NCBI GenBank assembly: GCA_040754075.1
Contig: JBFMDH010000006.1
Location: forward strand, 102,285-166,284
Source of the DNA: Acidobacteriota bacterium
GTDB lineage: Bacteria; Acidobacteriota; Blastocatellia; UBA7656
Length of the DNA stretch: 64,000 nt
Direction: 5' to 3'
The translations under genes and the position numbers were made by a program. Shown piece after piece: positions 40,430-49,069 of the stretch. The first letter of the stretch is position 1. Every line of letters begins with the position of its first letter. A model generated the notes under the pieces. The model was not told where the DNA came from. It saw only the letters and a list, made by a program, of their open reading frames with translations, and did not search any database.

Positions 40430-41386
40430 TTATTTCTTATCTCTTTTCATTTCCGGTGCAGAAGATTTTTTCAGGCGTTTCCAGAGGATGGTCACTGCGC
40501 CGCTCTCTTCCTGACGAATGACCCGGAAAGCGACGATGATGTCGGCTCCCTGATAAGGGTTGAATGGACTGATGGTGATGGTGGTTCCCGGAATAAATCG
40601 GATGAAGTCCGGGCGTTTGTAGGTTATAGAGCGCAATACATAAGTAATGCCGGGCACAACGCGAATCCCTGACCGGTAACTGAAGTTGCCTTCTTTAAAA
40701 CCTGCGGCATAGCGTTTGGCTTCGGCTGAAGCTTCGGAATAGCGTGTGGGAACGTTTAGTTTATGCAAATACTCGACGCCCGATGTTTGTAAGGTAACGC
40801 TTTCAAGCGCCACATCACCGAGGGCTGTGAAAAGTCCCAGCGATAATCTGGTGACTTGGGTGAGAAAAATATTTTCCTGCAAACCTAAATCAGACCAGAA
40901 GCCGTAAACATGGGTCTTCTTGCCGAAAGAATAAAACGCCCCGCCGCCGCGAATTGGCATTGCTTGCTCAGGCGCAGTTGCCGATACCGTAAGCGACGTT
41001 TCGTAATCGACTTTGGGTAACAGTCGAATCAACCCGGTGTTGGATTGTTTGAGGAATTGAGCGTATTGCAAACGGTCTTCAGCGGAACCCGCGAGATATT
41101 TTTTTTGCTCATCGGTCAACGGCTTTTCATTTATCTCGGGAGGCACCTGTGAAAGTTTTTCGATATTTTCTTCAACCTGGGCTTTAGCAGCCTCGGCGCG
41201 AGCCTTATTCAAGTAATCCACCGGCACATTGTCTCTGGTTATCGAATGTTCAGGAGCGCTCATCGGCGAGGGTGGCAGAGATTGATTGGGCTTATTCTGA
41301 GTTTGAGCAGGCAGAGGCGCACTAAGAGAGATGAATAAACCGGCAGCAACGATTAAAACAGATGACCGGTTGAGCAAACGAGACAT
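40430..41386 (-). CDS. Hypothetical secreted protein
   Basis: ATG at 41386 with an AAGGAG site 9 nt upstream, signal peptide. The TTG at 41404 was rejected. Confidence 0.4.
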   Translation of the reverse strand: MSRLLNRSSVLIVAAGLFISLSAPLPAQTQNKPNQSLPPSPMSAPEHSITRDNVPVDYLNKARAEAAKAQVEENIEKLSQVPPEINEKPLTDEQKKYLAGSAEDRLQYAQFLKQSNTGLIRLLPKVDYETSLTVSATAPEQAMPIRGGGAFYSFGKKTHVYGFWSDLGLQENIFLTQVTRLSLGLFTALGDVALESVTLQTSGVEYLHKLNVPTRYSEASAEAKRYAAGFKEGNFSYRSGIRVVPGITYVLRSITYKRPDFIRFIPGTTITISPFNPYQGADIIVAFRVIRQEESGAVTILWKRLKKSSAPEMKRDKK

Positions 41387-41550
41387 ATAAAACTTCTCCT
41401 TCAACTCCCCAACGCTTCAACGGTTTTGTCATCTTATCACAGCGACAATTTTCTCTTCAAAGAGGGTGCGTGAGACTTCCTAGAAAAACCCTGTAAAATC
41501 GGTGTATCATCGTTGATTCGCAACTAAAGCCGTTTGCGATGGTCACAAGC

Positions 41551-41638: not shown

Positions 41639-42997
41639 ATGACGCAAAAGAAAAAAATCGGCATGGTCAGTCTCGGTTGTCCCAAAAATCTCGTTGACAG
41701 CGAAGTGATGATGGGGCTGCTCGCACAGCAAGGCTATGAACTCACCCACAATCAACAGGACGCCGATGTGTTGGTGGTCAATACCTGCGGGTTTATTGAT
41801 TCGGCGCGACAGGAATCGGTTGAAACGATTCTGGAAATGGCGGAATTCAAAAAATCCGGCAAAGCCCAGCAACTCATCGTCGCGGGCTGTCTGGTCGAAC
41901 GCTATCACGAAGAGTTGCAAAAAGAGATTCCCGAAATTGATGCATTGATTGGCGTCAATCAACTGACGGAAATCACCTCAATCGTCAAACCGAATGGCGC
42001 AAAACCGTTGCCGATTTACAGCGAAGGGCGCACCGCGCCTGAACTTTTTCTTTACGACGAAACCACCCCCAGACTTCGCGCCACCGCGCCTTACAGTTCG
42101 TATGTGAAGATTGCCGAAGGCTGCGACCACACCTGCGCCTTTTGCATTATTCCGAAACTGCGCGGCGTATTTCGCAGCCGGTCGCCGGAATCCATTTTGC
42201 GCGAAGTTGAAATTCTCGCGGCGCAAGGCGTCAAAGAAATCGTTTTGATTTCGCAGGACACCACCGCATACGGAAGCGACCTGGCTTTAAAAGACGGCTT
42301 GGCGCAACTGGTTGAATCCATCGCCAATGTCGAAGGCATCGAGTGGGTGAGGTTTTTATATTGTTACCCGACTGCCATCAGCGATGAACTATTGCGGGTG
42401 ATGGCTGAACATCCAAACGTCTGCAAATATTTCGACATCCCTTTGCAACACGCGAGCAGCAATGTATTGAAGTTGATGCGGCGCGGCGGCAATCGCCAGT
42501 CTTATGAACGATTATTCAAACGCATCCGCGAACGGGTGCCGGGGGTGGCGCTGCGCACCACCTTCATTGTCGGCTTTCCCGGCGAGACTGACGCGGATTT
42601 TCAGGAACTCGTCGAATTCGTCAACGCCATGCAATTTGACCGCGTCGGCGTTTTCACCTATTCGGATGAAGAGAACTCTCCGGCGTTTGAAATCGACAAC
42701 AAAGTGCCGCATTCAGTGGCAAAAAAGCGCGAAAAGATTTTAATGAAAGCGCAGGCGAAAATTTCCAAACGCAAGAACAAAGCTTTAGTTGGCAAGCGCG
42801 TGCAAGTCCTGCTTGAAGGCAAATCGAAAGAGAGCGATTTACTGCTTGAAGGTCGCATGCAATCGCAAGCGCCGGAAATTGACGGCTGCGTATTAATCAA
42901 CGATATACCCGAAGAGGCGGACATTCGCGCCGGCGATTTCGTCACCGTTGAAATCACCGAAGCCCACGAATACGATATAATTGCGCGAATCATTTAA
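41639..42997 (+). CDS. rimO: Ribosomal protein S12 methylthiotransferase RimO (MTTase N-terminal domain, radical SAM domain, TRAM domain)
   Basis: MTQKKKIGMVSLGCPKN.. N-terminus, CDHTCAFC radical SAM motif, TRAM C-terminus. Confidence 0.8.
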   Translation: MTQKKKIGMVSLGCPKNLVDSEVMMGLLAQQGYELTHNQQDADVLVVNTCGFIDSARQESVETILEMAEFKKSGKAQQLIVAGCLVERYHEELQKEIPEIDALIGVNQLTEITSIVKPNGAKPLPIYSEGRTAPELFLYDETTPRLRATAPYSSYVKIAEGCDHTCAFCIIPKLRGVFRSRSPESILREVEILAAQGVKEIVLISQDTTAYGSDLALKDGLAQLVESIANVEGIEWVRFLYCYPTAISDELLRVMAEHPNVCKYFDIPLQHASSNVLKLMRRGGNRQSYERLFKRIRERVPGVALRTTFIVGFPGETDADFQELVEFVNAMQFDRVGVFTYSDEENSPAFEIDNKVPHSVAKKREKILMKAQAKISKRKNKALVGKRVQVLLEGKSKESDLLLEGRMQSQAPEIDGCVLINDIPEEADIRAGDFVTVEITEAHEYDIIARII

Positions 42998-43012: not shown

Positions 43013-43270
43013 ATGAGCGTCGACGACTCAACATTTGAACAGGCATTGGCAATGGCACAACAACTTCCACCTGTTGACCAAGCGCGTTTAATTGCGCGTC
43101 TGGCTCCGGCTATCGAAAAATTCCTTGAACACGTGGAAAAGCCCGAATTGCCTGAACGCCAGGTTCGTATGCGGGGCTTGCTTGCGGATTTGGGCGCGGC
43201 TCCTTCCACAGAAGAGATTGATGAAGTTCAGCACGAAATGTGGGCATCTTTTGCAGAGGACAAGCGATGA
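43013..43270 (+). CDS. Putative antitoxin of a VapBC-like pair (no recognisable RHH, AbrB or Phd fold)
   Basis: AAAGGGGAG ribosome-binding site. Its stop overlaps the PIN gene start as ATGA. 85 aa, acidic. Confidence 0.45.
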   Translation: MSVDDSTFEQALAMAQQLPPVDQARLIARLAPAIEKFLEHVEKPELPERQVRMRGLLADLGAAPSTEEIDEVQHEMWASFAEDKR

Positions 43271-43626
43271 TTTGTGCGATTGCTGATACCCAAACGGCAG
43301 GTGCATTGATGGATAAAGCAGAAACGGATGGCGAGCAAATCGCCATCTCTTCCGTAACCTTAGATGAGATGGTTTATCTTATCGAAAAAGGGCGTATTGA
43401 TTCTGCCGCCTTTGACCGTGTCATTGATGCTTTAAATATGCCGAATTCGCTGTTTGTGGAAATTCCTTTGGACAGCAACGTCGTTAAAGCTATGCGACTG
43501 ATTGCCCGTTCAGAAGTTCCTGATTTGCCAGACCGTATCATTGCGGCAACCGGACTTTTTCTGGGAGCGCCGGTTATCAGTCGGGATAGCAAGATTCAAT
43601 CTTCGTCCGTAAAACCGTTATGGTAA
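43267..43626 (+). CDS. vapC: PIN-domain ribonuclease toxin (VapC-like)
   Basis: Acidic residues spaced as in PIN domains (D near the N-terminus, LDEMV, DRIIAAT, RDSK). Confidence 0.55.
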   Translation: MICAIADTQTAGALMDKAETDGEQIAISSVTLDEMVYLIEKGRIDSAAFDRVIDALNMPNSLFVEIPLDSNVVKAMRLIARSEVPDLPDRIIAATGLFLGAPVISRDSKIQSSSVKPLW

Positions 43627-43630
43627 AAAC

Positions 43631-44641
43631 ATGGGAACCAACCGACCACAAGAGCTAATCCAACCAAGGCTTTTCCAACCAATTGACCGTTTTGCTTATT
43701 TGATAGCAACAGGGTTTGGCGCGGGGCTTATGCCGAAAGCCCCGAACGTGCCCGGCGCTCTCGAAAGGGTGGTGGCTATTTTTTATGTGTTGATGTTGCT
43801 TTCGTTCGGCAATCCATCTTTTGCCCGGAACGAAGATGAGGTCGGCGCAAAACCTAAACCGATAAAACTACCTGGCGCTTTTGTCGCATTTTCAAACGAT
43901 GATGTGTTAAAGAAAACGTTTTCTGATTATGACATTCAAACGGGAAGAATTTCATCACGTTTGAATGAAAATAATCAGCCTTCATTGGTTCGTATCAATC
44001 AAGCGCGTTTGTGGAGAGTGAAGGGGCAGGAACACTTAGTGGCGCTCATAGATATTGCTGGAGCAGACCATTATTTTAAAGACTTGTGCGGGAATTGCGG
44101 AATATTTGCAACATTAGTTGTGCTCAAAAGAGCAGGTAATCAATTGGTTGTCGTTGCCAAACAACCGCCAAACCAATCTATGCCCTCTGATTTTTCCAGA
44201 GATAGAACGGATGCAATTTATTATACCGGTCATGACCCTATCGTCTCGTTAGACCTTGCGCCATATAAACTCACTGACAACGAGATGTTGATAGGTTTCC
44301 GCGTTGAACATATGTGGTTACCTGCGCGTACTTGGGATGTCTATCTGTCGCTTTATAGAATCGAAGGCGATAAGTTGCGTGAGGTTTTCAGCGAATCGGT
44401 TGTCGAAAGAAGGTATCCAGGCGAAAATCCACAGTACGAGGTTGTGAAATCGGTGTCCGAGCTTTCTCCTCTACGCCTGAACTCAAAATTTTATGATTAT
44501 GAAATCCGTAAAACCGTAACGCATTGCTTTGATAAAAACGATGATGCCGATTGCACCGTAAAAGCTGACAAAATCACGCGAATAGAAAAACAAACCGAAT
44601 TATGGCGATTTAACGGGGCAAGATTTGAAAAAATAAAATAG
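43631..44641 (+). CDS. Chimeric hypothetical protein: the N-terminal ~60 aa are paralogous to the PgpA N-terminus (the IDRFAYLIATGFGAGLMPKAP core is identical), fused to a 275-aa domain of unknown function
   Basis: 60-nt perfect DNA identity with the pgpA 5' region, with diverged homology flanking it. Confidence 0.5.
   Translation: MGTNRPQELIQPRLFQPIDRFAYLIATGFGAGLMPKAPNVPGALERVVAIFYVLMLLSFGNPSFARNEDEVGAKPKPIKLPGAFVAFSNDDVLKKTFSDYDIQTGRISSRLNENNQPSLVRINQARLWRVKGQEHLVALIDIAGADHYFKDLCGNCGIFATLVVLKRAGNQLVVVAKQPPNQSMPSDFSRDRTDAIYYTGHDPIVSLDLAPYKLTDNEMLIGFRVEHMWLPARTWDVYLSLYRIEGDKLREVFSESVVERRYPGENPQYEVVKSVSELSPLRLNSKFYDYEIRKTVTHCFDKNDDADCTVKADKITRIEKQTELWRFNGARFEKIK
43684..43743 (+). repeat. Direct repeat, copy 1: 60-nt perfect duplicate of the pgpA 5' coding region
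   Basis: Identical to 44746-44805. Confidence 0.9.
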
Positions 44642-44700
44642 GCAGTACAACAACAGCCGATTATGATTTTCATCTATTAAAATACGCCTGACACAAATTC

Positions 44701-45219
44701 ATGAACCAACACACCAGCATTCAATTCAAAACTTTCAATGCCATAGACCGTTTTGCTTATTTGATAGCAACAGGGTTTGGCGCGGGGCTTATGCCGAAAG
44801 CCCCGGGCACCTTTGGGGCAATTGAAAGTGTGTTGGTTTTTGTAGCGGCAGTTGCTTTGCCGTTATCTCCGCAAATTCTGCTGATTCTTTTTTCACTAAT
44901 GAGTCTAGTGAGTTTCGCAGCCGGTGTCTGGGCTGCAAATCGCGTCTGCAAAGCGACAGGCTTGGACGACCCCGGTCAAATCGTCGTTGATGAAATCTGC
45001 GGGCAATTCATCGCTCTGGTGCCGGTCGCGCTTGCGCCTTCGTGGCTCAATATCGTCCTGGCATTTTTGTTGTTTCGTTTATTTGACATTACCAAGCCCT
45101 ACCCGATTCGCAAACTCGAAAATTTTCATGGCGGACTCGGCGTGATGGCTGATGATGTGCTCGCCGGAATTTACGCCGCTCTGCTTGTCTGGTTGGCTCA
45201 TCTCTTGCACCTCGTATAA
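44701..45219 (+). CDS. pgpA: Phosphatidylglycerophosphatase A
   Basis: ATGFGAGLMPKAPGTFGA N-terminal motif and PgpA-like transmembrane organisation. Confidence 0.75.
   Translation: MNQHTSIQFKTFNAIDRFAYLIATGFGAGLMPKAPGTFGAIESVLVFVAAVALPLSPQILLILFSLMSLVSFAAGVWAANRVCKATGLDDPGQIVVDEICGQFIALVPVALAPSWLNIVLAFLLFRLFDITKPYPIRKLENFHGGLGVMADDVLAGIYAALLVWLAHLLHLV
44746..44805 (+). repeat. Direct repeat, copy 2, inside the intact pgpA
   Basis: Identical to 43684-43743. Confidence 0.9.
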
Positions 45220-45229
45220 ACTGCATTGG

Positions 45230-45973
45230 ATGGGAAATCTCGAACAGGCGATTGAAACCGCTCGGCACGCTGAACAACCAGTTATTCAATTTATCAAAAA
45301 AGCGCCCATCAAACCGCAACGCTTAGGCATCTTTGCGGCTTCTTTTAATCCGGTCACCACAGCCCACCTTGAGCTTATGCAACAAGCGAAGGTTGATTTT
45401 TCGCTTGATGCAATCATCGCGCTTGCCGGAATCGCAAATGCCGATAAAAGCGAATACGAATGCGCCATCGCTGACCGCTTGCGAATGCTTGAGTTGGTTT
45501 TTAATGAAAACGCGCAAACCTCCATCGCGGTCTCTTCGCACGCTTTTTTTGTTGATAAACTCGACGCCCTTCGCGCGCATTATGACGCGGGAACCGAGTT
45601 GCACTTCATCCTCGGCTTCGATACCTTTGAGCGCGTGCTTGACCCGGAAGACAAATACACACGGCTTTATCACAGAAATTTTGCAAACCGCAACCTGGCG
45701 CTCTCCTATCTGCTCGCACAATCTCGTTTGATTGTTGCAAGTCGCCTGAACGCCAATCGAAACGATTTTCATTCGCTGGTTGAAAAATTCGTACCCGCGC
45801 AATTTGCCGTTCGCATTGCGTTTCTGGATTTCCCGAAAACCTACGGCGAACAATCGGCAACCGAAGTTCGTCGTCGCCTCGAAAATAAAACACCTATTGC
45901 CGGACTTGTCCCCGACGCGGTTGCGCGTTACATCATTGAAAGAGGATTGTATCAACCAAGCTCACGCCAATAA
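45230..45973 (+). CDS. NadD-like nucleotidyltransferase (nicotinate/nicotinamide mononucleotide adenylyltransferase family) with an atypical TTAH in place of HxGH
   Basis: GIFAASFNPVTTAHLELM resembles the GxFGGSFNPxHxGHL motif. ATG at 45230. Confidence 0.5.
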   Translation: MGNLEQAIETARHAEQPVIQFIKKAPIKPQRLGIFAASFNPVTTAHLELMQQAKVDFSLDAIIALAGIANADKSEYECAIADRLRMLELVFNENAQTSIAVSSHAFFVDKLDALRAHYDAGTELHFILGFDTFERVLDPEDKYTRLYHRNFANRNLALSYLLAQSRLIVASRLNANRNDFHSLVEKFVPAQFAVRIAFLDFPKTYGEQSATEVRRRLENKTPIAGLVPDAVARYIIERGLYQPSSRQ

Positions 45974-46050
45974 GCGGATATTTGATTTAAGCGGCGCGGC
46001 TGTTGATCGCCCTGCACCCAAAGAAAATTATTTGAACTTAGGAAAACCTT

Positions 46051-47289
46051 ATGTTGAAAGCAGAAATACTTGCCATCGGTTCGGAAATGCTCACCCCGTT
46101 TAGAGTCGATACCAACTCGCTGTGGCTCACCGAACGATTGAATGCCATCGGTATCGAAGTGCATCTGAAAACCATCGTCGGCGATGACGAAGCGATTATG
46201 GAAGACGTCATCACCCACGCTTTACAACGTTCAGATATTATTATTTCGACCGGCGGGCTTGGGCCTACGGAAGATGATGTGACGCGCAAAGTCTTTTCGC
46301 GGGTCACCAACCGGCAACTCAAACTGGATTATGAAATTCTCGAAAACCTGCGCCAGCGTATGGAGAGCCGGGGTTTCAAGATGACCCCCAATAATGAACG
46401 CCAGGCGCTCGTCCCGCGTGGCGCAATCGTGTTGCCCAATCCGCACGGCAGCGCGCCGGGACTCAAAATCGAGCAGGATGAAAAACTCATCTACTTGCTT
46501 CCGGGACCGCCACGCGAAAATAAACCGATGTTCAATGATTATGTCTTTCCCGAACTTGAAAAACTTTCGCGTGGGGTGCGCATCGCCAAACGTTTTCTGA
46601 AAGTCGCAGGCATCGGCGAATCGGCGATGGATGATATGATTGCGCCGATTTACAAAGAATATACTGATGTAACCACCACCGTGTTATTCACCAACACCGA
46701 CATCGAAATTCATTTGATTGCCAAAGCCGACACCATCCAACGGGCGCAGGAGCGGGTTGACGAACTGGCGGAAAAGTTAGAAGAAAAACTTGATTTGCTT
46801 TGCTACTCGACGCAGGGCGAATCGCTCGAACAGGTGATTGGCAATCGACTGCAATTGAAAGGTTACACCATCGCCACTGCCGAAAGTTGCACAGGAGGAC
46901 TGGTCGCCGAACGCTTGACGCAAATTCCCGGCGCCAGCAAATACTTTGTCGGCAGCATCATCAGTTATACCAACGAAATTAAACAATGGTTGTTGAATGT
47001 GCCGAAAGAGATGCTCGATAGAAGCGGCGCAGTGAGCGGTGAAGTCGCCGAAGCGATGGCGCGCGGCATCAAAGAACAAACCGGTGCGACCATTGGTGTC
47101 AGCATCACGGGCGTCGCGGGGCCTGACGGCGGAACCGAGGCAACACCTGTTGGCACAGTTTACGTGGGGCTTGCCGACGACACCGGCTCATCCAATAAAC
47201 GATTAAACCTGTTCGGCGACCGCGAATTGATTCGCTGGCGTGCATCTGCCGCAGCACTCGAATTAGTCAGGCGAAGATATTTGCTATGA
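46051..47289 (+). CDS. cinA: CinA family protein (competence/damage-inducible, NMN deamidase type) with an MoCF-binding N-terminal domain and a CinA C-terminal domain
   Basis: MLKAEILAIGSEMLTPFRVDTN.. is a canonical CinA N-terminus. Confidence 0.85.
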   Translation: MLKAEILAIGSEMLTPFRVDTNSLWLTERLNAIGIEVHLKTIVGDDEAIMEDVITHALQRSDIIISTGGLGPTEDDVTRKVFSRVTNRQLKLDYEILENLRQRMESRGFKMTPNNERQALVPRGAIVLPNPHGSAPGLKIEQDEKLIYLLPGPPRENKPMFNDYVFPELEKLSRGVRIAKRFLKVAGIGESAMDDMIAPIYKEYTDVTTTVLFTNTDIEIHLIAKADTIQRAQERVDELAEKLEEKLDLLCYSTQGESLEQVIGNRLQLKGYTIATAESCTGGLVAERLTQIPGASKYFVGSIISYTNEIKQWLLNVPKEMLDRSGAVSGEVAEAMARGIKEQTGATIGVSITGVAGPDGGTEATPVGTVYVGLADDTGSSNKRLNLFGDRELIRWRASAAALELVRRRYLL

Positions 47290-47291
47290 AA

Positions 47292-47366
47292 GTTTCTGGT
47301 TTTCTAGTTTGTGTTTCCATCACTCTTGCATTATCAGGATTAAACTAGAAACCAGAAACCAGAAAC
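47292..47366. repeat. Tandem-heptamer hairpin with unit GTTTCTG
   Basis: Left arm GTTTCTG GTTTTCTA GTTT. The reverse complement of the right arm is (GTTTCTG)(GTTTCTG)(GTTTCTA). Confidence 0.75.
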
Positions 47367-47374
47367 TCAAAACC

Positions 47375-49069
47375 ATGCCTAATTCAATTGAATTCTTGCT
47401 CAACCAACTTGAAGAAGCGAAGCGGCGATTTGATGACCAGTCGCAAACACTAATCGTCAAATGCCTTGAAAAGCTCTCCAGGAGCCGGTTTCAAGACGCC
47501 AGCACCTTGATTCGCTTTCATGAAATCCTGCTCTTTTTGCGCGCTTATCCGGCAAGCGCCGAAATTCTTGAGCAAGCGGAAACCTTGCTCAACAACTTTG
47601 TGGAACGGGTTCAGAGGCTATACGACGATGGCGCTGATATGGCTGAGTTTTGGGACGCCGAGTATTCGGGCATCGCAGGAAATGAAATCTCTGCGGTCTT
47701 CTCTTATAAAATCGCCCGCTTCCTTGCTGAACAATTTCCGCAATCCGCTGAAGTCGATTGGCAAGCCTTTAAACGAAAAGACCGACTTGGCGCGATACTG
47801 CCGCGTCTGATTCCGCTACTTGACGAAGATGCTTCAGTTGAAGCGAACGTCCCTTATTATACCTGGCTCAAAACTGCAAAAGGACAACGAGGAAGTGACC
47901 TTGCCTGGATGATTCGCGGTTTTGCTGAGTTGGATTTAAGTGAAAGAGCGAAAGCTGAGCTTTTTGATTCGCTTGATCTGCCTATCTGGTGGCGCATTGA
48001 AAATGCGAAAGCGTCACGAACCCGTTTGCGACTTGCGACCAAAAAATTCTTCTATCATACGACGCCGCTCATTAAACGAAGTGAAGTTTCGATAGCGGAT
48101 GAATTTGCCGGTAAACCGCTTCGCGTAAAAAAGCTTTCCTCAACACAAGGCAAGAAAGCGATTAACCTTGCCCGCGTCGCGTCGGTTGAGCGTTACCGGG
48201 AACTCTATGGATTTACTCACGGCGATGCAAACTGCGTTTCGCACGCTGAACTCGGACGCGGCGTTGAAATGTTCATATATGAACTCGCGCCCGAATGGCG
48301 TTTACCACTTCGCGCTTATCACGCGGGAATGATTTTCAAAAACGGCGTTCCGGTTGGCTATGTCGAAACGCTTTCGCTGTTTGAGCGGTGCGAGGTTGGC
48401 TTCAACCTTTACTACACTTTTCGCGATGGCGAAACCGCCTGGCTTTATGCGCGGTTGTTGAAACTCTTTCATCAACTGTTCGGCGTGACCTATTTTTCGA
48501 TTGACCCGTATCAAATCGGCTTTCATAACGAAGAAGCCATCGAATCGGGCGCGTTCTGGTTTTATCGCAAACTCGGTTTTCGGTCGACGCAACCGGGGAT
48601 TCGACAACTCATTGAGGCGGAAGAAAAGCGTTTGCATGAACGCGCTGGTTATCGAACGCCCGCGCGCACACTTCGCAAAATTGCCGCAGGACACCTGGTG
48701 TTTGAATTGCACAAACCGGAAAGCGATTGGGATGGCTTTCAAATTCGCAACCTCGGATTGAACCTGCAAAAGCACATCGCAAAAAATTTTGCCGGCAGCG
48801 CCAAAAAGATGAAAGCGGTGACGATCAAGGAAATCGCTCGCGAGTTACGAATCCAGCTCGCATCCTTCAGTGAAAGCGAACATCGATTGTTTGAAAATTT
48901 TGCTCTGGTGCTCGCTTTAATAAACGATTTCCATACCTGGACGCCAGGCGAAAAACAACTCCTTGCCGACATTATTGAGGCGAAACTGCAGCGCAGCGAA
49001 AACGATTATCTCGCATTACAACAAAAACACTCGCGATTGCGCGATGCAGTGATTCGTTCAGGCTTTTGA
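47375..49069 (+). CDS. Hypothetical 564-aa protein: helical N-terminal half and a C-terminal region with a possible GNAT-like acyltransferase signature
   Basis: ATG at 47375. The ORF track's upstream extension runs through the hairpin. ..GAFWFYRKLGFR.. is GNAT-like. No confident family assignment. Confidence 0.4.
   Translation: MPNSIEFLLNQLEEAKRRFDDQSQTLIVKCLEKLSRSRFQDASTLIRFHEILLFLRAYPASAEILEQAETLLNNFVERVQRLYDDGADMAEFWDAEYSGIAGNEISAVFSYKIARFLAEQFPQSAEVDWQAFKRKDRLGAILPRLIPLLDEDASVEANVPYYTWLKTAKGQRGSDLAWMIRGFAELDLSERAKAELFDSLDLPIWWRIENAKASRTRLRLATKKFFYHTTPLIKRSEVSIADEFAGKPLRVKKLSSTQGKKAINLARVASVERYRELYGFTHGDANCVSHAELGRGVEMFIYELAPEWRLPLRAYHAGMIFKNGVPVGYVETLSLFERCEVGFNLYYTFRDGETAWLYARLLKLFHQLFGVTYFSIDPYQIGFHNEEAIESGAFWFYRKLGFRSTQPGIRQLIEAEEKRLHERAGYRTPARTLRKIAAGHLVFELHKPESDWDGFQIRNLGLNLQKHIAKNFAGSAKKMKAVTIKEIARELRIQLASFSESEHRLFENFALVLALINDFHTWTPGEKQLLADIIEAKLQRSENDYLALQQKHSRLRDAVIRSGF

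What the first reader, a model, noticed from the sequence alone, without database searches (positions are those of the whole stretch)
43631..44810. 60-bp perfect duplication of the pgpA 5' end creates a chimeric pgpA'-unknown gene immediately upstream of intact pgpA
Positions 43684-43743 and 44746-44805 are identical over 60 nt, encoding IDRFAYLIATGFGAGLMPKAP. The roughly 50 nt 5' of each copy, and the roughly 60 nt 3' of each, are recognisably homologous but diverged (MGTNRPQELIQPRLFQP versus MNQHTSIQFKTFNA, and NVPGALERVVAIF versus GTFGAIESVLVF). A 60-bp island of perfect identity inside diverged paralogous flanks suggests recent gene conversion or an insertion that carried or reconstituted the target. 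The upstream copy is fused in frame to a 275-aa domain with no recognisable family. That places a PgpA-type membrane anchor on an unknown protein, directly after a vapBC-like pair and before the conserved pgpA-nadD-cinA block.
Basis: seen in the sequence. Interest (0 to 1): 0.65.

Follow-up and report, generated by a model that had tools for sequence, protein, structure and literature searches.

The report
Partial pgpA copy fused to secreted-protein gene
In one uncultured Acidobacteriota genome, a rearrangement beside a toxin-antitoxin cassette put a decayed copy of the first ~45 codons of the lipid-phosphatase gene pgpA in front of a conserved secreted-protein gene; it is a real but ordinary scar of genome evolution, not a new kind of protein or system.

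Summary
Orthologous pgpA genes are only 73-83% identical over these bases.

The upstream copy belongs to a ~138-nt partial copy of pgpA, running from the ATG to about codon 45. Its flanks are heavily decayed. It is fused in frame to "X", a conserved secreted protein of Acidobacteriota (about 25 homologues). Every homologue starts with its own ordinary signal peptide, and none carries a PgpA-like N-terminus.

The rimO|pgpA junction varies between relatives:
- The two closest relatives have rimO-pgpA with nothing between.
- More distant relatives have rimO-X-pgpA.
- Only this window has rimO-vapB-vapC-pgpA'::X-pgpA.

X keeps its hydrophobic core, its SFA|R cleavage site and 73 of 78 family-conserved residues. 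It is therefore probably still exported, and the PgpA' segment is most likely a leader extension that is cleaved off or bypassed, not a membrane anchor.

The identical 60-nt island inside the decayed flanks is best explained by gene conversion with the resident pgpA 1,061 nt downstream. The order of events could not be resolved. No integrase or att-type mechanism is evident. Interest is low to moderate: this is an instance of known processes.

The parts
41639..42997 (+). rimO, the conserved left border of the variable junction
   Evidence: Pfam UPF0004 + Radical_SAM + TRAM_2. 92% aa identity to L094/L095 and 83-86% to L001/L002. No mosaic break at its 3' end.
43013..43270 (+). vapB-like antitoxin gene (85 aa)
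   Evidence: No Pfam family. A homologue lies directly upstream of the VapC homologue in 75 of 80 metagenome loci. Overlaps vapC by 4 nt.
43267..43626 (+). vapC (PIN-domain toxin), with an in-frame 14-aa deletion of helix alpha-1
   Evidence: Pfam PIN, 34.8 bits against a cut-off of 23.6. All homologues are 132-134 aa; the window lacks the 'HAVIWYLYNDSRLS' block but keeps the invariant D, E, D and D residues.
43631..43768 (+). pgpA': decayed partial copy of the pgpA 5' end (ATG to about codon 45), starting 4 nt after the vapC stop
   Evidence: tblastn of PgpA residues 7-45 gives 72% identity. Pfam PgpA aligns chimera residues 24-53 to profile positions 1-30 (12.3 bits) and the NCBIfam PgpA equivalog aligns residues 23-58. 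The DNA alignment implies 'ATG+GG+AACCAAC' against the resident 'ATGAACCAAC', plus a further 7-nt insertion.
43654..43682 (+). 15-nt tandem duplication inside the pgpA' 5' flank (LIQPR/LFQPI)
   Evidence: Family D5 (two copies, spacing 15 nt, 86% identity).
43685..43744 (+). 60-nt perfect repeat, copy 1
   Evidence: Its 3' half folds into an 8-bp GC-rich hairpin that ends at the repeat boundary.
43760..43785 (+). zone containing the pgpA'/X fusion joint; candidate microhomologies are GAAAG(G) and ATTTTT
   Evidence: On the left, GGCGCTCTCGAAAG matches L001 pgpA GGCGCTCTGGAAAG. From L44, 'LERVVAIFYVLMLLSFGNPSFA' has the same 22-aa length as the L001 X signal peptide 'MKRLLSILLVWLLLVSQFVSFA'. 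The exact joint cannot be resolved.
43769..43825 (+). hydrophobic core and cleavage region of X's signal peptide (residues 47-65, ...SFA|R)
   Evidence: Aligns with the signal peptides of all homologues. Kyte-Doolittle peak of 3.06. The AlphaFold2 (AF2) model has a helix at residues 42-59.
43826..44641 (+). mature part of X, a beta-rich secreted protein of unknown function
   Evidence: 24 homologues with E<=1e-46. Keeps 73 of 78 positions that are >=90% conserved, the same as control family members. AF2 pLDDT is mostly 70-97. No PDB fold match. Weak NCBIfam PA3715_dom match, 39 bits against a cut-off of 70.
43631..44641 (+). chimeric ORF as annotated (336 aa, GenBank MEW6127131.1, AB1757_08835)
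44642..44700 (+). X-pgpA spacer
   Evidence: 'GACACAAATTCATG' resembles the L002 X-pgpA spacer end 'GACACGATTTTATG'.
44701..45219 (+). resident, full-length pgpA, orthologous over its whole length
   Evidence: Pfam PgpA, 145 bits, covering profile positions 1-141. 76% aa identity to L095 PgpA over 172 aa.
44746..44805 (+). 60-nt perfect repeat, copy 2
45227..47289 (+). nadD-like and cinA genes, the conserved right-hand context
   Evidence: Pfam and NCBIfam. Same gene order in L001, L002 and L095.

Best explanation
This is a lineage-specific rearrangement scar at a variable spot between rimO and pgpA.

A partial copy of the pgpA 5' end (start codon to about codon 45, window 43631 to about 43768) lies 4 nt after a vapBC toxin-antitoxin cassette. 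It is joined in frame, at a short microhomology, to codon ~3 of X. X is a conserved secreted protein, and the join cost it its own start codon.

The copy is not under PgpA-type constraint. Its flanks have decayed to about 46-58% identity and carry indels: +2 and +7 nt, plus a 15-nt tandem duplication. The central 60 nt are kept identical to the resident pgpA, 1,061 nt downstream, by intrachromosomal gene conversion. This reads as a shrinking island of concerted evolution whose donor copy is held constant by selection on the PgpA motif.

Functionally, X is still made and exported, because its hydrophobic core, its SFA|R cleavage site and its conserved residues are intact. The PgpA' peptide is then either a 46-aa cytoplasmic extension of the signal peptide that is cleaved off, or untranslated leader bypassed through an internal start. 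In-frame candidates are ATG 43730, GTG 43769/43772 and ATG 43793. Expression is now coupled to the vapBC operon.

Two histories give the same structure and could not be separated:
- S1: X was resident, and vapBC plus a copy of the nearby pgpA 5' end were inserted in front of it.
- S2: the lineage had rimO-vapBC-pgpA, and a fragment 'X + spacer + pgpA 5' end' from an X-bearing relative integrated, homologously in pgpA and illegitimately at codon ~45. This would resemble homology-facilitated illegitimate recombination.

Shown directly: the anatomy, the uniqueness of the arrangement, the retained constraint on X, and the variability of the junction. Inferred: gene conversion, export, and the order of events.
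For: - **Repeat and ORFs:**
- **Homologues of the X part:** they start with M-K/R-R, a hydrophobic stretch and (V/P)xFA|Q. None has residues 1-46 of the chimera.
- **Synteny:** rimO-X-pgpA, with no vapBC and no pgpA', in L001, L002/L003/L004 and the contig carrying P0002. rimO-pgpA directly in the two relatives with 92% RimO identity, L094 and L095.
- **The resident pgpA is the orthologue:** 76% aa identity to L095 over the full length.
- **Core identity:** 100% between the two window copies, against 73-83% between the window and orthologues.
- **Flank homology:** significant at fixed offset, and the ATG..AACCAAC signature is unique to the two starts. The PgpA HMMs align to residues 23-58.
- **Indels in the pgpA' flank:**
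- **Constraint on X:** X retains 73 of 78 conserved positions, like the control family members.
- **Leader anatomy:** hydropathy and predicted helix of the leader.
- **vapBC is a widespread two-gene module:** 75 of 80 loci. Its vapC copy here has a 14-aa deletion, so the cassette is not brand new.
- **Operon context:** no + strand terminator-like site between the 3' end of rimO and pgpA.
Against: - Gene conversion is inferred only from the pattern of identity. RecA-type conversion normally needs a block of identity to start, so the island must have been homogenised continuously, and that cannot be shown from one genome.
- The order of events is unresolved.
- No start codon has been mapped, and there is no Shine-Dalgarno sequence before ATG 43631.
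- The 46 open codons of pgpA' could be open by chance, about 0.11 (my estimate).
- If the FAYLIATGFGAGLM segment inserted into the membrane, X's topology would be inverted. No signal-peptide or topology predictor was available to test this.
- The genome is a MAG seen in a single assembly, so the perfection of the 60 nt could be slightly overstated by the assembler.
Confidence: 0.65

Rival explanations
1. pgpA' is foreign. A fragment 'vapB-vapC-pgpA(5')' from another organism, in which the cassette sits directly upstream of pgpA, was inserted in front of X. The flanks differ because the donor gene was a diverged orthologue, and only the 60-nt core was later converted by the resident gene.
For: The flanks of pgpA' are at least as diverged from the resident as orthologues from other species are. 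The 3' flank GGCGCTCTCGAAAG is closer to L001 pgpA than to the resident. The 4-nt vapC-pgpA' spacing looks like a native operon joint.
Against: None of the 80 loci with the closest VapBC relatives has pgpA next to the cassette. An exhaustive search of 1.84 billion representative proteins found no PgpA with pgpA'-like flanks. The 5' flank is nearer to the resident (12/24; 58%) than to L001/L002 (9-10/24; 47%). The frame-shifted homology just after the ATG looks like decay rather than a functional orthologue. There is no mosaic break in rimO.
Confidence: 0.12
2. Only the 60-73 nt are derived from pgpA. A short templated patch was copied recently from 1 kb downstream into a pre-existing leader of X, and the flank similarity is coincidental.
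For: The boundaries of identity are very sharp, 100% against about 50%. Gapped DNA alignments of the flanks give only z = 1.9 and 2.8. The 3' flank past about 24 nt can equally be read as X's own signal peptide.
Against: Fixed-offset flank matches give P = 0.008 and 0.003. The ATG..AACCAAC signature occurs only at the two start codons in 128 kb of sequence (both strands). The distance from the ATG to the core is nearly the same in both copies, 54 and 45 nt. The PgpA HMMs extend 15-20 residues past the identical segment.
Confidence: 0.07
3. The repeats are att-like ends of a site-specific mobile element that inserted into the pgpA 5' end and carried a replacement 5' end.
For: Direct repeats bracket a 1,001-nt segment and the target gene is intact downstream. 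Relative to the two closest relatives, the whole 43013-44700 block is absent.
Against: No integrase, transposase or recombinase domain was found in any of the ORFs scanned between 36.7 and 50 kb. The segment between the repeats is X, which occupies this exact position with its own start codon in other relatives. vapBC lies outside the repeats. Neither PADLOC nor Rfam gives any hit here.
Confidence: 0.04
4. Assembly artefact. The contig is chimeric across the repeat, or the assembler homogenised two similar but non-identical 60-mers.
For: The genome is a MAG. The chimeric protein, VapB, VapC and PgpA are each known from one contig only. The exact vapC-pgpA' junction was not found in JGI metagenome contigs.
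Against: The pgpA'-X joint lies 20-40 nt outside the repeat, in unique sequence, so collapsing or mis-joining at the 60-mer cannot create the fusion. All four flanks of the repeat are unique, and a linear path must cross the loop once. The contig is 306 kb. The ORF stays open and X keeps its conserved residues.
Confidence: 0.06
5. The fusion is a functional innovation: a PgpA-derived N-terminal segment tethers or retargets X, so the chimera is a new membrane protein.
For: The reading frame from ATG 43631 is preserved despite +2, +7 and +15 nt indels. X remains under constraint. The 4-nt spacing after the vapC stop allows translational coupling.
Against: The arrangement is unique to one MAG. 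The copied segment is only moderately hydrophobic, and X's cleavage site follows it. The flanks look neutral or decayed. AF2 gives pLDDT <50 for residues 1-40.
Confidence: 0.06

Closest known systems
Concerted evolution by intrachromosomal gene conversion between duplicated bacterial genes (for example tufA/tufB in Salmonella and E. coli; my own knowledge, not checked in a paper here)
   Same: Two copies in direct orientation on one chromosome, with a tract kept identical while the surrounding sequence diverges. The functional copy is under purifying selection.
   Different: Here one partner is a 138-nt gene fragment fused to another gene, and the identical tract is only 60 nt and 1 kb away. 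Conversion is inferred from a single genome and was not measured.
Homology-facilitated illegitimate recombination (one homologous end, one microhomology end; defined in the abstract of PMC3240628)
   Same: History S2 needs exactly this: a homologous anchor in pgpA and an illegitimate joint at a 4-6-nt microhomology (GAAAG or ATTTTT). The result is foreign DNA next to an intact anchor gene.
   Different: Neither donor nor recipient is known. The event duplicates part of the anchor rather than deleting recipient DNA. Natural transformation is not documented for this organism.
Sequential displacement of effector-immunity modules at a fixed locus in Vibrio cholerae (PMC5361080; title, abstract and listing as a paper that uses the HFIR term; main text not read)
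   Same: A fixed chromosomal slot between conserved genes accumulates and exchanges small cassettes.
   Different: Different genes and no type VI secretion context. I did not read that paper's mechanism in detail.
attL/attR repeats of integrative elements that reconstitute the end of their target gene
   Same: A direct repeat of part of a gene, with an intact gene on one side of the inserted DNA.
   Different: There is no integrase. The DNA between the repeats is a gene native to this position in relatives. The repeat flanks are diverged homologues rather than unrelated element DNA.
VapBC type II toxin-antitoxin modules (PIN-domain toxin, Pfam PF01850)
   Same: A two-gene operon with a 4-nt overlap, a PIN domain above the Pfam threshold, and a conserved partner gene upstream in 75 of 80 relatives.
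   Different: This VapC lacks 14 residues (helix alpha-1) present in every homologue. It may be inactive.
PgpA, phosphatidylglycerophosphatase A (Pfam PF04608; NCBIfam NF008288)
   Same: The resident gene 44701-45219 is a full-length member. The chimera shares residues equivalent to PgpA 1-45, including the GFGAG...PKAP motif.
   Different: The chimera covers only profile positions 1-30 of 141 and scores 12 bits against a cut-off of 28. It lacks the rest of the protein, so it is not a PgpA.

Membership tests
PgpA (PF04608), chimeric ORF 43631-44641 | Match to the PgpA domain at or above Pfam's gathering score, covering the domain | tested here: not met
   No hit at E<=0.01 for the 336-aa ORF. 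The 60-aa N-terminus alone scores 12.3 bits against 28, covering profile positions 1-30 of 141. The NCBIfam equivalog scores 16 bits against 226.
PgpA (PF04608), resident ORF 44701-45219 | Full-length match above the gathering score, plus orthologous synteny | tested here: met
   145.2 bits, covering profile positions 1-141 of 141. pgpA-nadD-like-cinA order is shared with L001, L002 and L095. Phosphatase activity was not tested.
VapC / PIN-domain toxin (PF01850) | PIN domain above threshold with the conserved acidic residues | tested here: met
   34.8 bits against 23.6. The invariant D, E, D and D columns are retained in the alignment.
VapC / PIN-domain toxin (PF01850) | Complete fold (all helices of the family) | tested here: not met
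   A 14-aa block present in all 8 aligned homologues (132-134 aa proteins) is missing.
Type II toxin-antitoxin operon | Small antitoxin gene directly upstream of the toxin, with co-conserved adjacency | tested here: met
   A VapB homologue lies upstream of VapC in 75 of 80 loci. The two genes overlap by 4 nt in the window. Toxicity and neutralisation were not tested.
Integrative element with att repeats | Integrase or recombinase gene within or next to the repeat-bounded DNA | tested here: not met
   The ORFs between 36.7 and 50 kb are a subtilase, three proteins with no Pfam hit (187 aa, 324 aa, and 586 aa at 47309-49069), RimO, VapB, VapC, X, PgpA, NadD-like, CinA and LysR. No recombinase domain was found.
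Integrative element with att repeats | Repeat-bounded DNA is absent from the empty site in relatives and is foreign to the locus | tested here: inconclusive
   It is absent in L094 and L095. However, X is present at the same site, without repeats, in L001-L004 and the contig carrying P0002.
Sec-type signal peptide (X and its homologues) | Positively charged n-region, hydrophobic h-region, small residues at -3 and -1 before the cleavage site | tested here: inconclusive
   By inspection, the homologues have MKR/MPK + 12-15 hydrophobic residues + SFA|Q. The window has R46 + VVAIFYVLMLLSF + NPSFA|R after a 46-aa extension. No signal-peptide predictor was available.
PA3715 family (NCBIfam NF052451) | Score at or above the curated cut-off | tested here: not met
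   39.2 bits against 70, for residues 205-332 only. This is distant similarity at most.
Gene-conversion tract between paralogous sequences | A tract far more similar between the paralogues than the flanks are, and than orthologues are over the same tract | tested here: met
   60/60 in the core, against 46-58% in the flanks and 73-83% between the window and orthologues in the core.
Gene-conversion tract between paralogous sequences | Direct evidence of transfer (phylogenetic incongruence across several genomes, or experimental observation) | not testable with these tools
   Only one genome carries both copies.

The most novel reading that the evidence does not exclude
The 60-nt direct repeats may act as a RecA-dependent excision switch. 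Recombination between them would delete X precisely and leave an intact hybrid pgpA (MGTNRPQ... N-terminus) directly coupled to vapBC, so the population could toggle between X-plus and X-minus states. Alternatively, the PgpA'-X precursor could be a real dual-start or dual-topology protein, with the PgpA-derived leader changing where or when X is exported. The evidence excludes neither reading and specifically supports neither.
Probability: 0.06. Interest if true: 0.5.

Novelty: new member of a known kind. Interest (0 to 1): 0.25.

Why it matters
It is a clean natural example of three things. A small intergenic slot (rimO|pgpA) is remodelled between close relatives: empty, X, or toxin-antitoxin cassette plus X. 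A partial gene duplicate can donate a start codon and leader to a neighbouring gene. And a short island of identity can persist inside a decayed duplicate.

It also matters for annotation. The 336-aa 'hypothetical protein' is really a secreted-protein family member with a borrowed N-terminus, and should not be read as a PgpA-related membrane protein. It does not open a new biological question by itself.

Tried and rejected
- **Homologue search with the N-terminus.** A word-indexed search with the 56-aa chimeric N-terminus returned no candidates and used one search.
- **Exact look-ups.** PgpA, VapB, the chimera and RimO from the window are not in the positional index, so no independent assembly of the locus was obtained.
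- **Junction search.** The exact vapC-pgpA' junction gave 0 hits in JGI metagenome contigs.
- **Search for a donor 'vapC-pgpA' arrangement.** 80 VapC loci were fetched and none has pgpA nearby.
- **Search for a PgpA with pgpA'-like flanks.** Among 1.84 billion representatives there were 4 weak hits: three ordinary PgpA-type sequences and one repetitive junk translation.
- **Remnants of pgpA', vapBC or X in the rimO-pgpA spacers of L094/L095.** The best local matches (for example TTTTCCAACC) are within the shuffled null.
- **Recombination breakpoint in rimO.** Sliding identity shows no drop at the 3' end.
- **Recombination breakpoint in the resident pgpA, as predicted by history S2.** A maximum-chi-square scan gives heterogeneity against L001 at nt 316 (permutation p=0.008) but not against L002 (p=0.27). 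The split is not near codon 45-50, so it is probably saturation of the poorly conserved transmembrane region. I did not use it (one search timed out).
- **Other scans.** No Pfam family for X or VapB, no PADLOC hit, no Rfam hit, no solved PgpA structure. The PA3715 literature search returned nothing relevant. The promoter and terminator scan was not informative beyond showing no + strand terminator between the 3' end of rimO and pgpA.
- **Rejected idea: X is a PgpA paralogue.** There is no similarity beyond residue ~58.
- **Rejected idea: the identity is due to codon-level conservation.** Orthologues differ at 10-16 of the 60 positions.
Full report

Yes. At offset 1,061 nt the longest perfect run is 60 nt, 43685-43744 = 44746-44805 (also family D1 and blastn). 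There are only two copies in the window, both on the + strand. A chance 60-mer match in 64 kb is expected about 1e-27 times (my calculation).

Both copies are in frame and encode IDRFAYLIATGFGAGLMPKAP. Copy 1 lies in ORF 43631-44641 (336 aa). Copy 2 lies in ORF 44701-45219 (172 aa), a full-length PgpA (Pfam PF04608, 145 bits, profile positions 1-141 of 141).

Protein conservation does not explain the identity. Over the same 60 nt the window is only 44-50/60 identical to pgpA in four related genomes.

**2. How far does the copied segment extend?**

The flanks are homologous but decayed. At fixed offset, with no alignment freedom:
- The 24 nt 5' of the core match the resident at 12/24 (P=0.008).
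- The 24 nt 3' of the core match L001 pgpA at 13/24 (P=0.003) and the resident at 11/24 (P=0.02).
- 'ATG + 0-3 nt + AACCAAC' occurs only at 43631 and 44701 on either strand of the window.

A multiple alignment places the upstream copy's ATG-GG-AACCAAC against the resident's ATG-AACCAAC, followed by a 7-nt insertion. The first ~20 nt are therefore homologous in a different reading frame, and the frame is restored (+2 +7 = 9 nt). There is also a 15-nt tandem duplication at 43654-43682 (D5).

The PgpA HMMs align chimera residues 24-53 (Pfam) and 23-58 (NCBIfam) to the start of the family profile, at sub-threshold scores.

The copy (pgpA') therefore runs from the pgpA start codon to about codon 45, roughly 43631-43768. 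Identity to the resident is 58% in the 5' flank and 46% in the 3' flank, against 100% in the core.

**3. What is the rest of the ORF?**

The C-terminal ~270 aa ('X') has 24 homologues (E 1e-46 to 1e-123) from Acidobacteriota MAGs and metagenomes, mostly Pyrinomonadaceae. All full-length homologues are 288-337 aa. They begin with an ordinary signal-peptide-like N-terminus, for example MPKLFFCVLILISLVNVSFA|Q or MKRLFFCSLFLLALVNVPFA|Q. None has anything like residues 1-46 of the window protein.

The window's L44-A65 (LERVVAIFYVLMLLSFGNPSFA) has the same 22-aa length as the L001 X signal peptide MKRLLSILLVWLLLVSQFVSFA, once the upstream ATG of that gene is used. X's start codon position now reads CTC.

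The joint lies somewhere in 43760-43785. To the left, GGCGCTCTCGAAAG matches pgpA (L001: GGCGCTCTGGAAAG). To the right is X. GAAAG(G) and ATTTTT are candidate microhomologies. Both parents are hydrophobic here, so the joint cannot be placed more precisely.

X has no Pfam family. It has a weak sub-threshold NCBIfam PA3715_dom match over residues 205-332. Its AlphaFold2 (AF2) model is confident and beta-rich (pLDDT mostly 70-97 after residue 70), and it has no significant PDB fold match. Its function is unknown.

X is not decaying. It keeps 73 of 78 positions that are >=90% conserved in the family, the same proportion as five control members.

**4. Comparative anatomy of the locus**

| Relatives | RimO identity to window | Arrangement |
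|---|---|---|
| L094 (GCA_034680565.1), L095 (JGI 3300048539) | 92% | rimO-pgpA directly, spacers of 95 and 72 nt; no X, no vapBC |
| L001 (Logan ERR5859547), L002/L003/L004 (GCA_016201275.1 and two Logan runs), JGI contig carrying P0002 | 83-86% | rimO-X-pgpA-nadD-like(-cinA); X has its own start; no vapBC, no pgpA' |
| Window | - | rimO-vapB-vapC-pgpA'::X-pgpA |

In more distant X-bearing genomes (L005-L013), X is not near rimO or pgpA. There it sits among other small secreted-protein genes.

The rimO|pgpA junction is therefore a variable slot, and the chimera is unique to the window. The resident pgpA is the orthologue along its whole length (76% aa identity to L095). pgpA' is the derived copy.

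**5. The cassette**

43013-43270 and 43267-43626 form a VapB/VapC-type pair. The toxin scores above the Pfam threshold for the PIN domain. The upstream partner is co-conserved in 75 of 80 metagenome loci.

The window's VapC lacks a 14-aa block (helix alpha-1) that is present in all homologues, which are 132-134 aa long. The cassette is therefore not brand new and may be inactive.

The vapC stop codon is 4 nt from the pgpA' ATG. No terminator-like site lies on the + strand between the 3' end of rimO and pgpA.

**6. How it most likely arose and works**

*Shown.* This is a partial 5' duplicate of pgpA fused in frame to X, which has lost its start codon. It sits next to a toxin-antitoxin cassette, at a slot that differs among relatives.

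*Inferred: gene conversion.* The 60-nt island is maintained by gene conversion with the resident pgpA 1,061 nt away. Flanks at about 50% identity with several indels imply long neutral decay, under which about 25 differences would be expected in the core. None is seen. The island coincides with the most conserved PgpA motif, where the resident copy cannot drift. Its right edge abuts a 10-nt patch with almost no identity, which would block heteroduplex extension.

*Inferred: function.* X is still under selection, so it must be translated and exported. The hydrophobic core (Kyte-Doolittle peak 3.06) and the SFA|R site are intact, whereas the copied PgpA segment is only moderately hydrophobic (peak 1.68). 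The PgpA' part is therefore most likely either an N-terminal extension removed with the signal peptide, or a leader bypassed from an internal start. In-frame candidates are ATG 43730 (inside the core, giving MPKAP...), GTG 43769/43772 and ATG 43793.

*Order of events unresolved.*
- S1: X was resident, and vapBC plus a copy of the nearby pgpA 5' end were inserted in front of it.
- S2: the lineage had rimO-vapBC-pgpA, and a fragment 'X + spacer + pgpA 5' end' from an X-bearing relative integrated with one homologous end in pgpA and one illegitimate end at codon ~45. This matches homology-facilitated illegitimate recombination as defined in the abstract of PMC3240628.

Tests for a mosaic in rimO and in pgpA did not discriminate between the two.

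**7. Rivals**

- **Foreign vapBC-pgpA fragment.** Not excluded, but no such arrangement or PgpA variant was found. The 5' flank is nearer to the resident than to other lineages.
- **Only a 60-73-nt patch was copied.** Disfavoured by the flank statistics.
- **att-type mobile element.** Disfavoured: there is no recombinase, and X is native to this site in relatives.
- **Assembly artefact.** Unlikely for the fusion itself, because the joint lies in unique sequence outside the repeat. However, the genome is a MAG known from one assembly, and an assembler could have erased a few differences between the two 60-mers.
- **Functional membrane-anchored fusion.** Possible but unsupported.

**8. Comparison with what is known, and novelty**

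The processes involved are all known: partial gene duplication, chimeric ORFs, toxin-antitoxin cassettes in intergenic slots, illegitimate or one-sided homologous recombination, and gene conversion. The chimeric ORF fails the PgpA membership test (12 bits against 28, profile positions 1-30 of 141). It should be annotated as a member of the X family of secreted proteins with a borrowed N-terminus.

**9. Verdict**

This is a new instance of known processes, with interest about 0.25.

Noticed in passing
window 43267-43626 (deletion point near 43290): VapC has an in-frame 14-aa deletion (the block 'HAVIWYLYNDSRLS', helix alpha-1) relative to all 132-134-aa homologues, while VapB is full length. 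This may be a toxin-inactivated, decaying TA module.
   Followed up: partly
L002 4195-4794 (= L003 3150-3749, L004 716-1315): In this relative, X is only 199 aa. An in-frame internal deletion removes roughly the equivalent of window residues 117-206, including the conserved LCGNC motif. It is seen in three independent assemblies, which suggests X is dispensable or decaying in some lineages.
   Followed up: partly
L094 7360-7454 and L095 6336-6407: The rimO-pgpA spacers of the two closest relatives contain imperfect ~10-11-nt tandem motifs (GACTCGCAAG / GACTCGCCAGA, three copies each). These are absent from the window. Their function is unknown.
   Followed up: no
L092 659-2657 and L046 10-1297: In two peat-metagenome loci the same VapBC-type cassette lies directly downstream of cinA, a gene from the same conserved neighbourhood as here. 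This may be coincidence (2 of 80 loci) or a preference for this region.
   Followed up: no
window 43721-43744 and 44782-44805: The 3' end of the 60-mer forms a perfect 8-bp GC-rich hairpin (CGGGGCTT-ATGCCGA-AAGCCCCG) that ends exactly at the identity boundary and carries an in-frame ATG in its loop. The whole 60-mer folds at dG -23.2 kcal/mol, z = -2.1. The stem is imperfect in L001 by eye, so it is probably a by-product of the GAGLMPKAP codons.
   Followed up: partly
window 40430-41404 (- strand): A 324-aa ORF with a signal-peptide-like N-terminus and no Pfam family lies between a 187-aa ORF and rimO. In L001 only about 155 nt separate the 189-aa gene from rimO. This would be a second lineage-specific difference next to rimO, but homology of the 187- and 189-aa genes was not checked.
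   Followed up: no
L005-L009, L011 (about 3 kb around the X match): In Pyrinomonadaceae, X sits in a conserved co-directional cluster of three or four small ORFs that all have signal-peptide-like N-termini (about 230-240 aa, 180-210 aa, X, then 190-225 aa). This hints at a multi-protein extracytoplasmic system of unknown function.
   Followed up: no
window 47309-49069: A 586-aa ORF directly after cinA has no Pfam match at E<=0.01.
   Followed up: no
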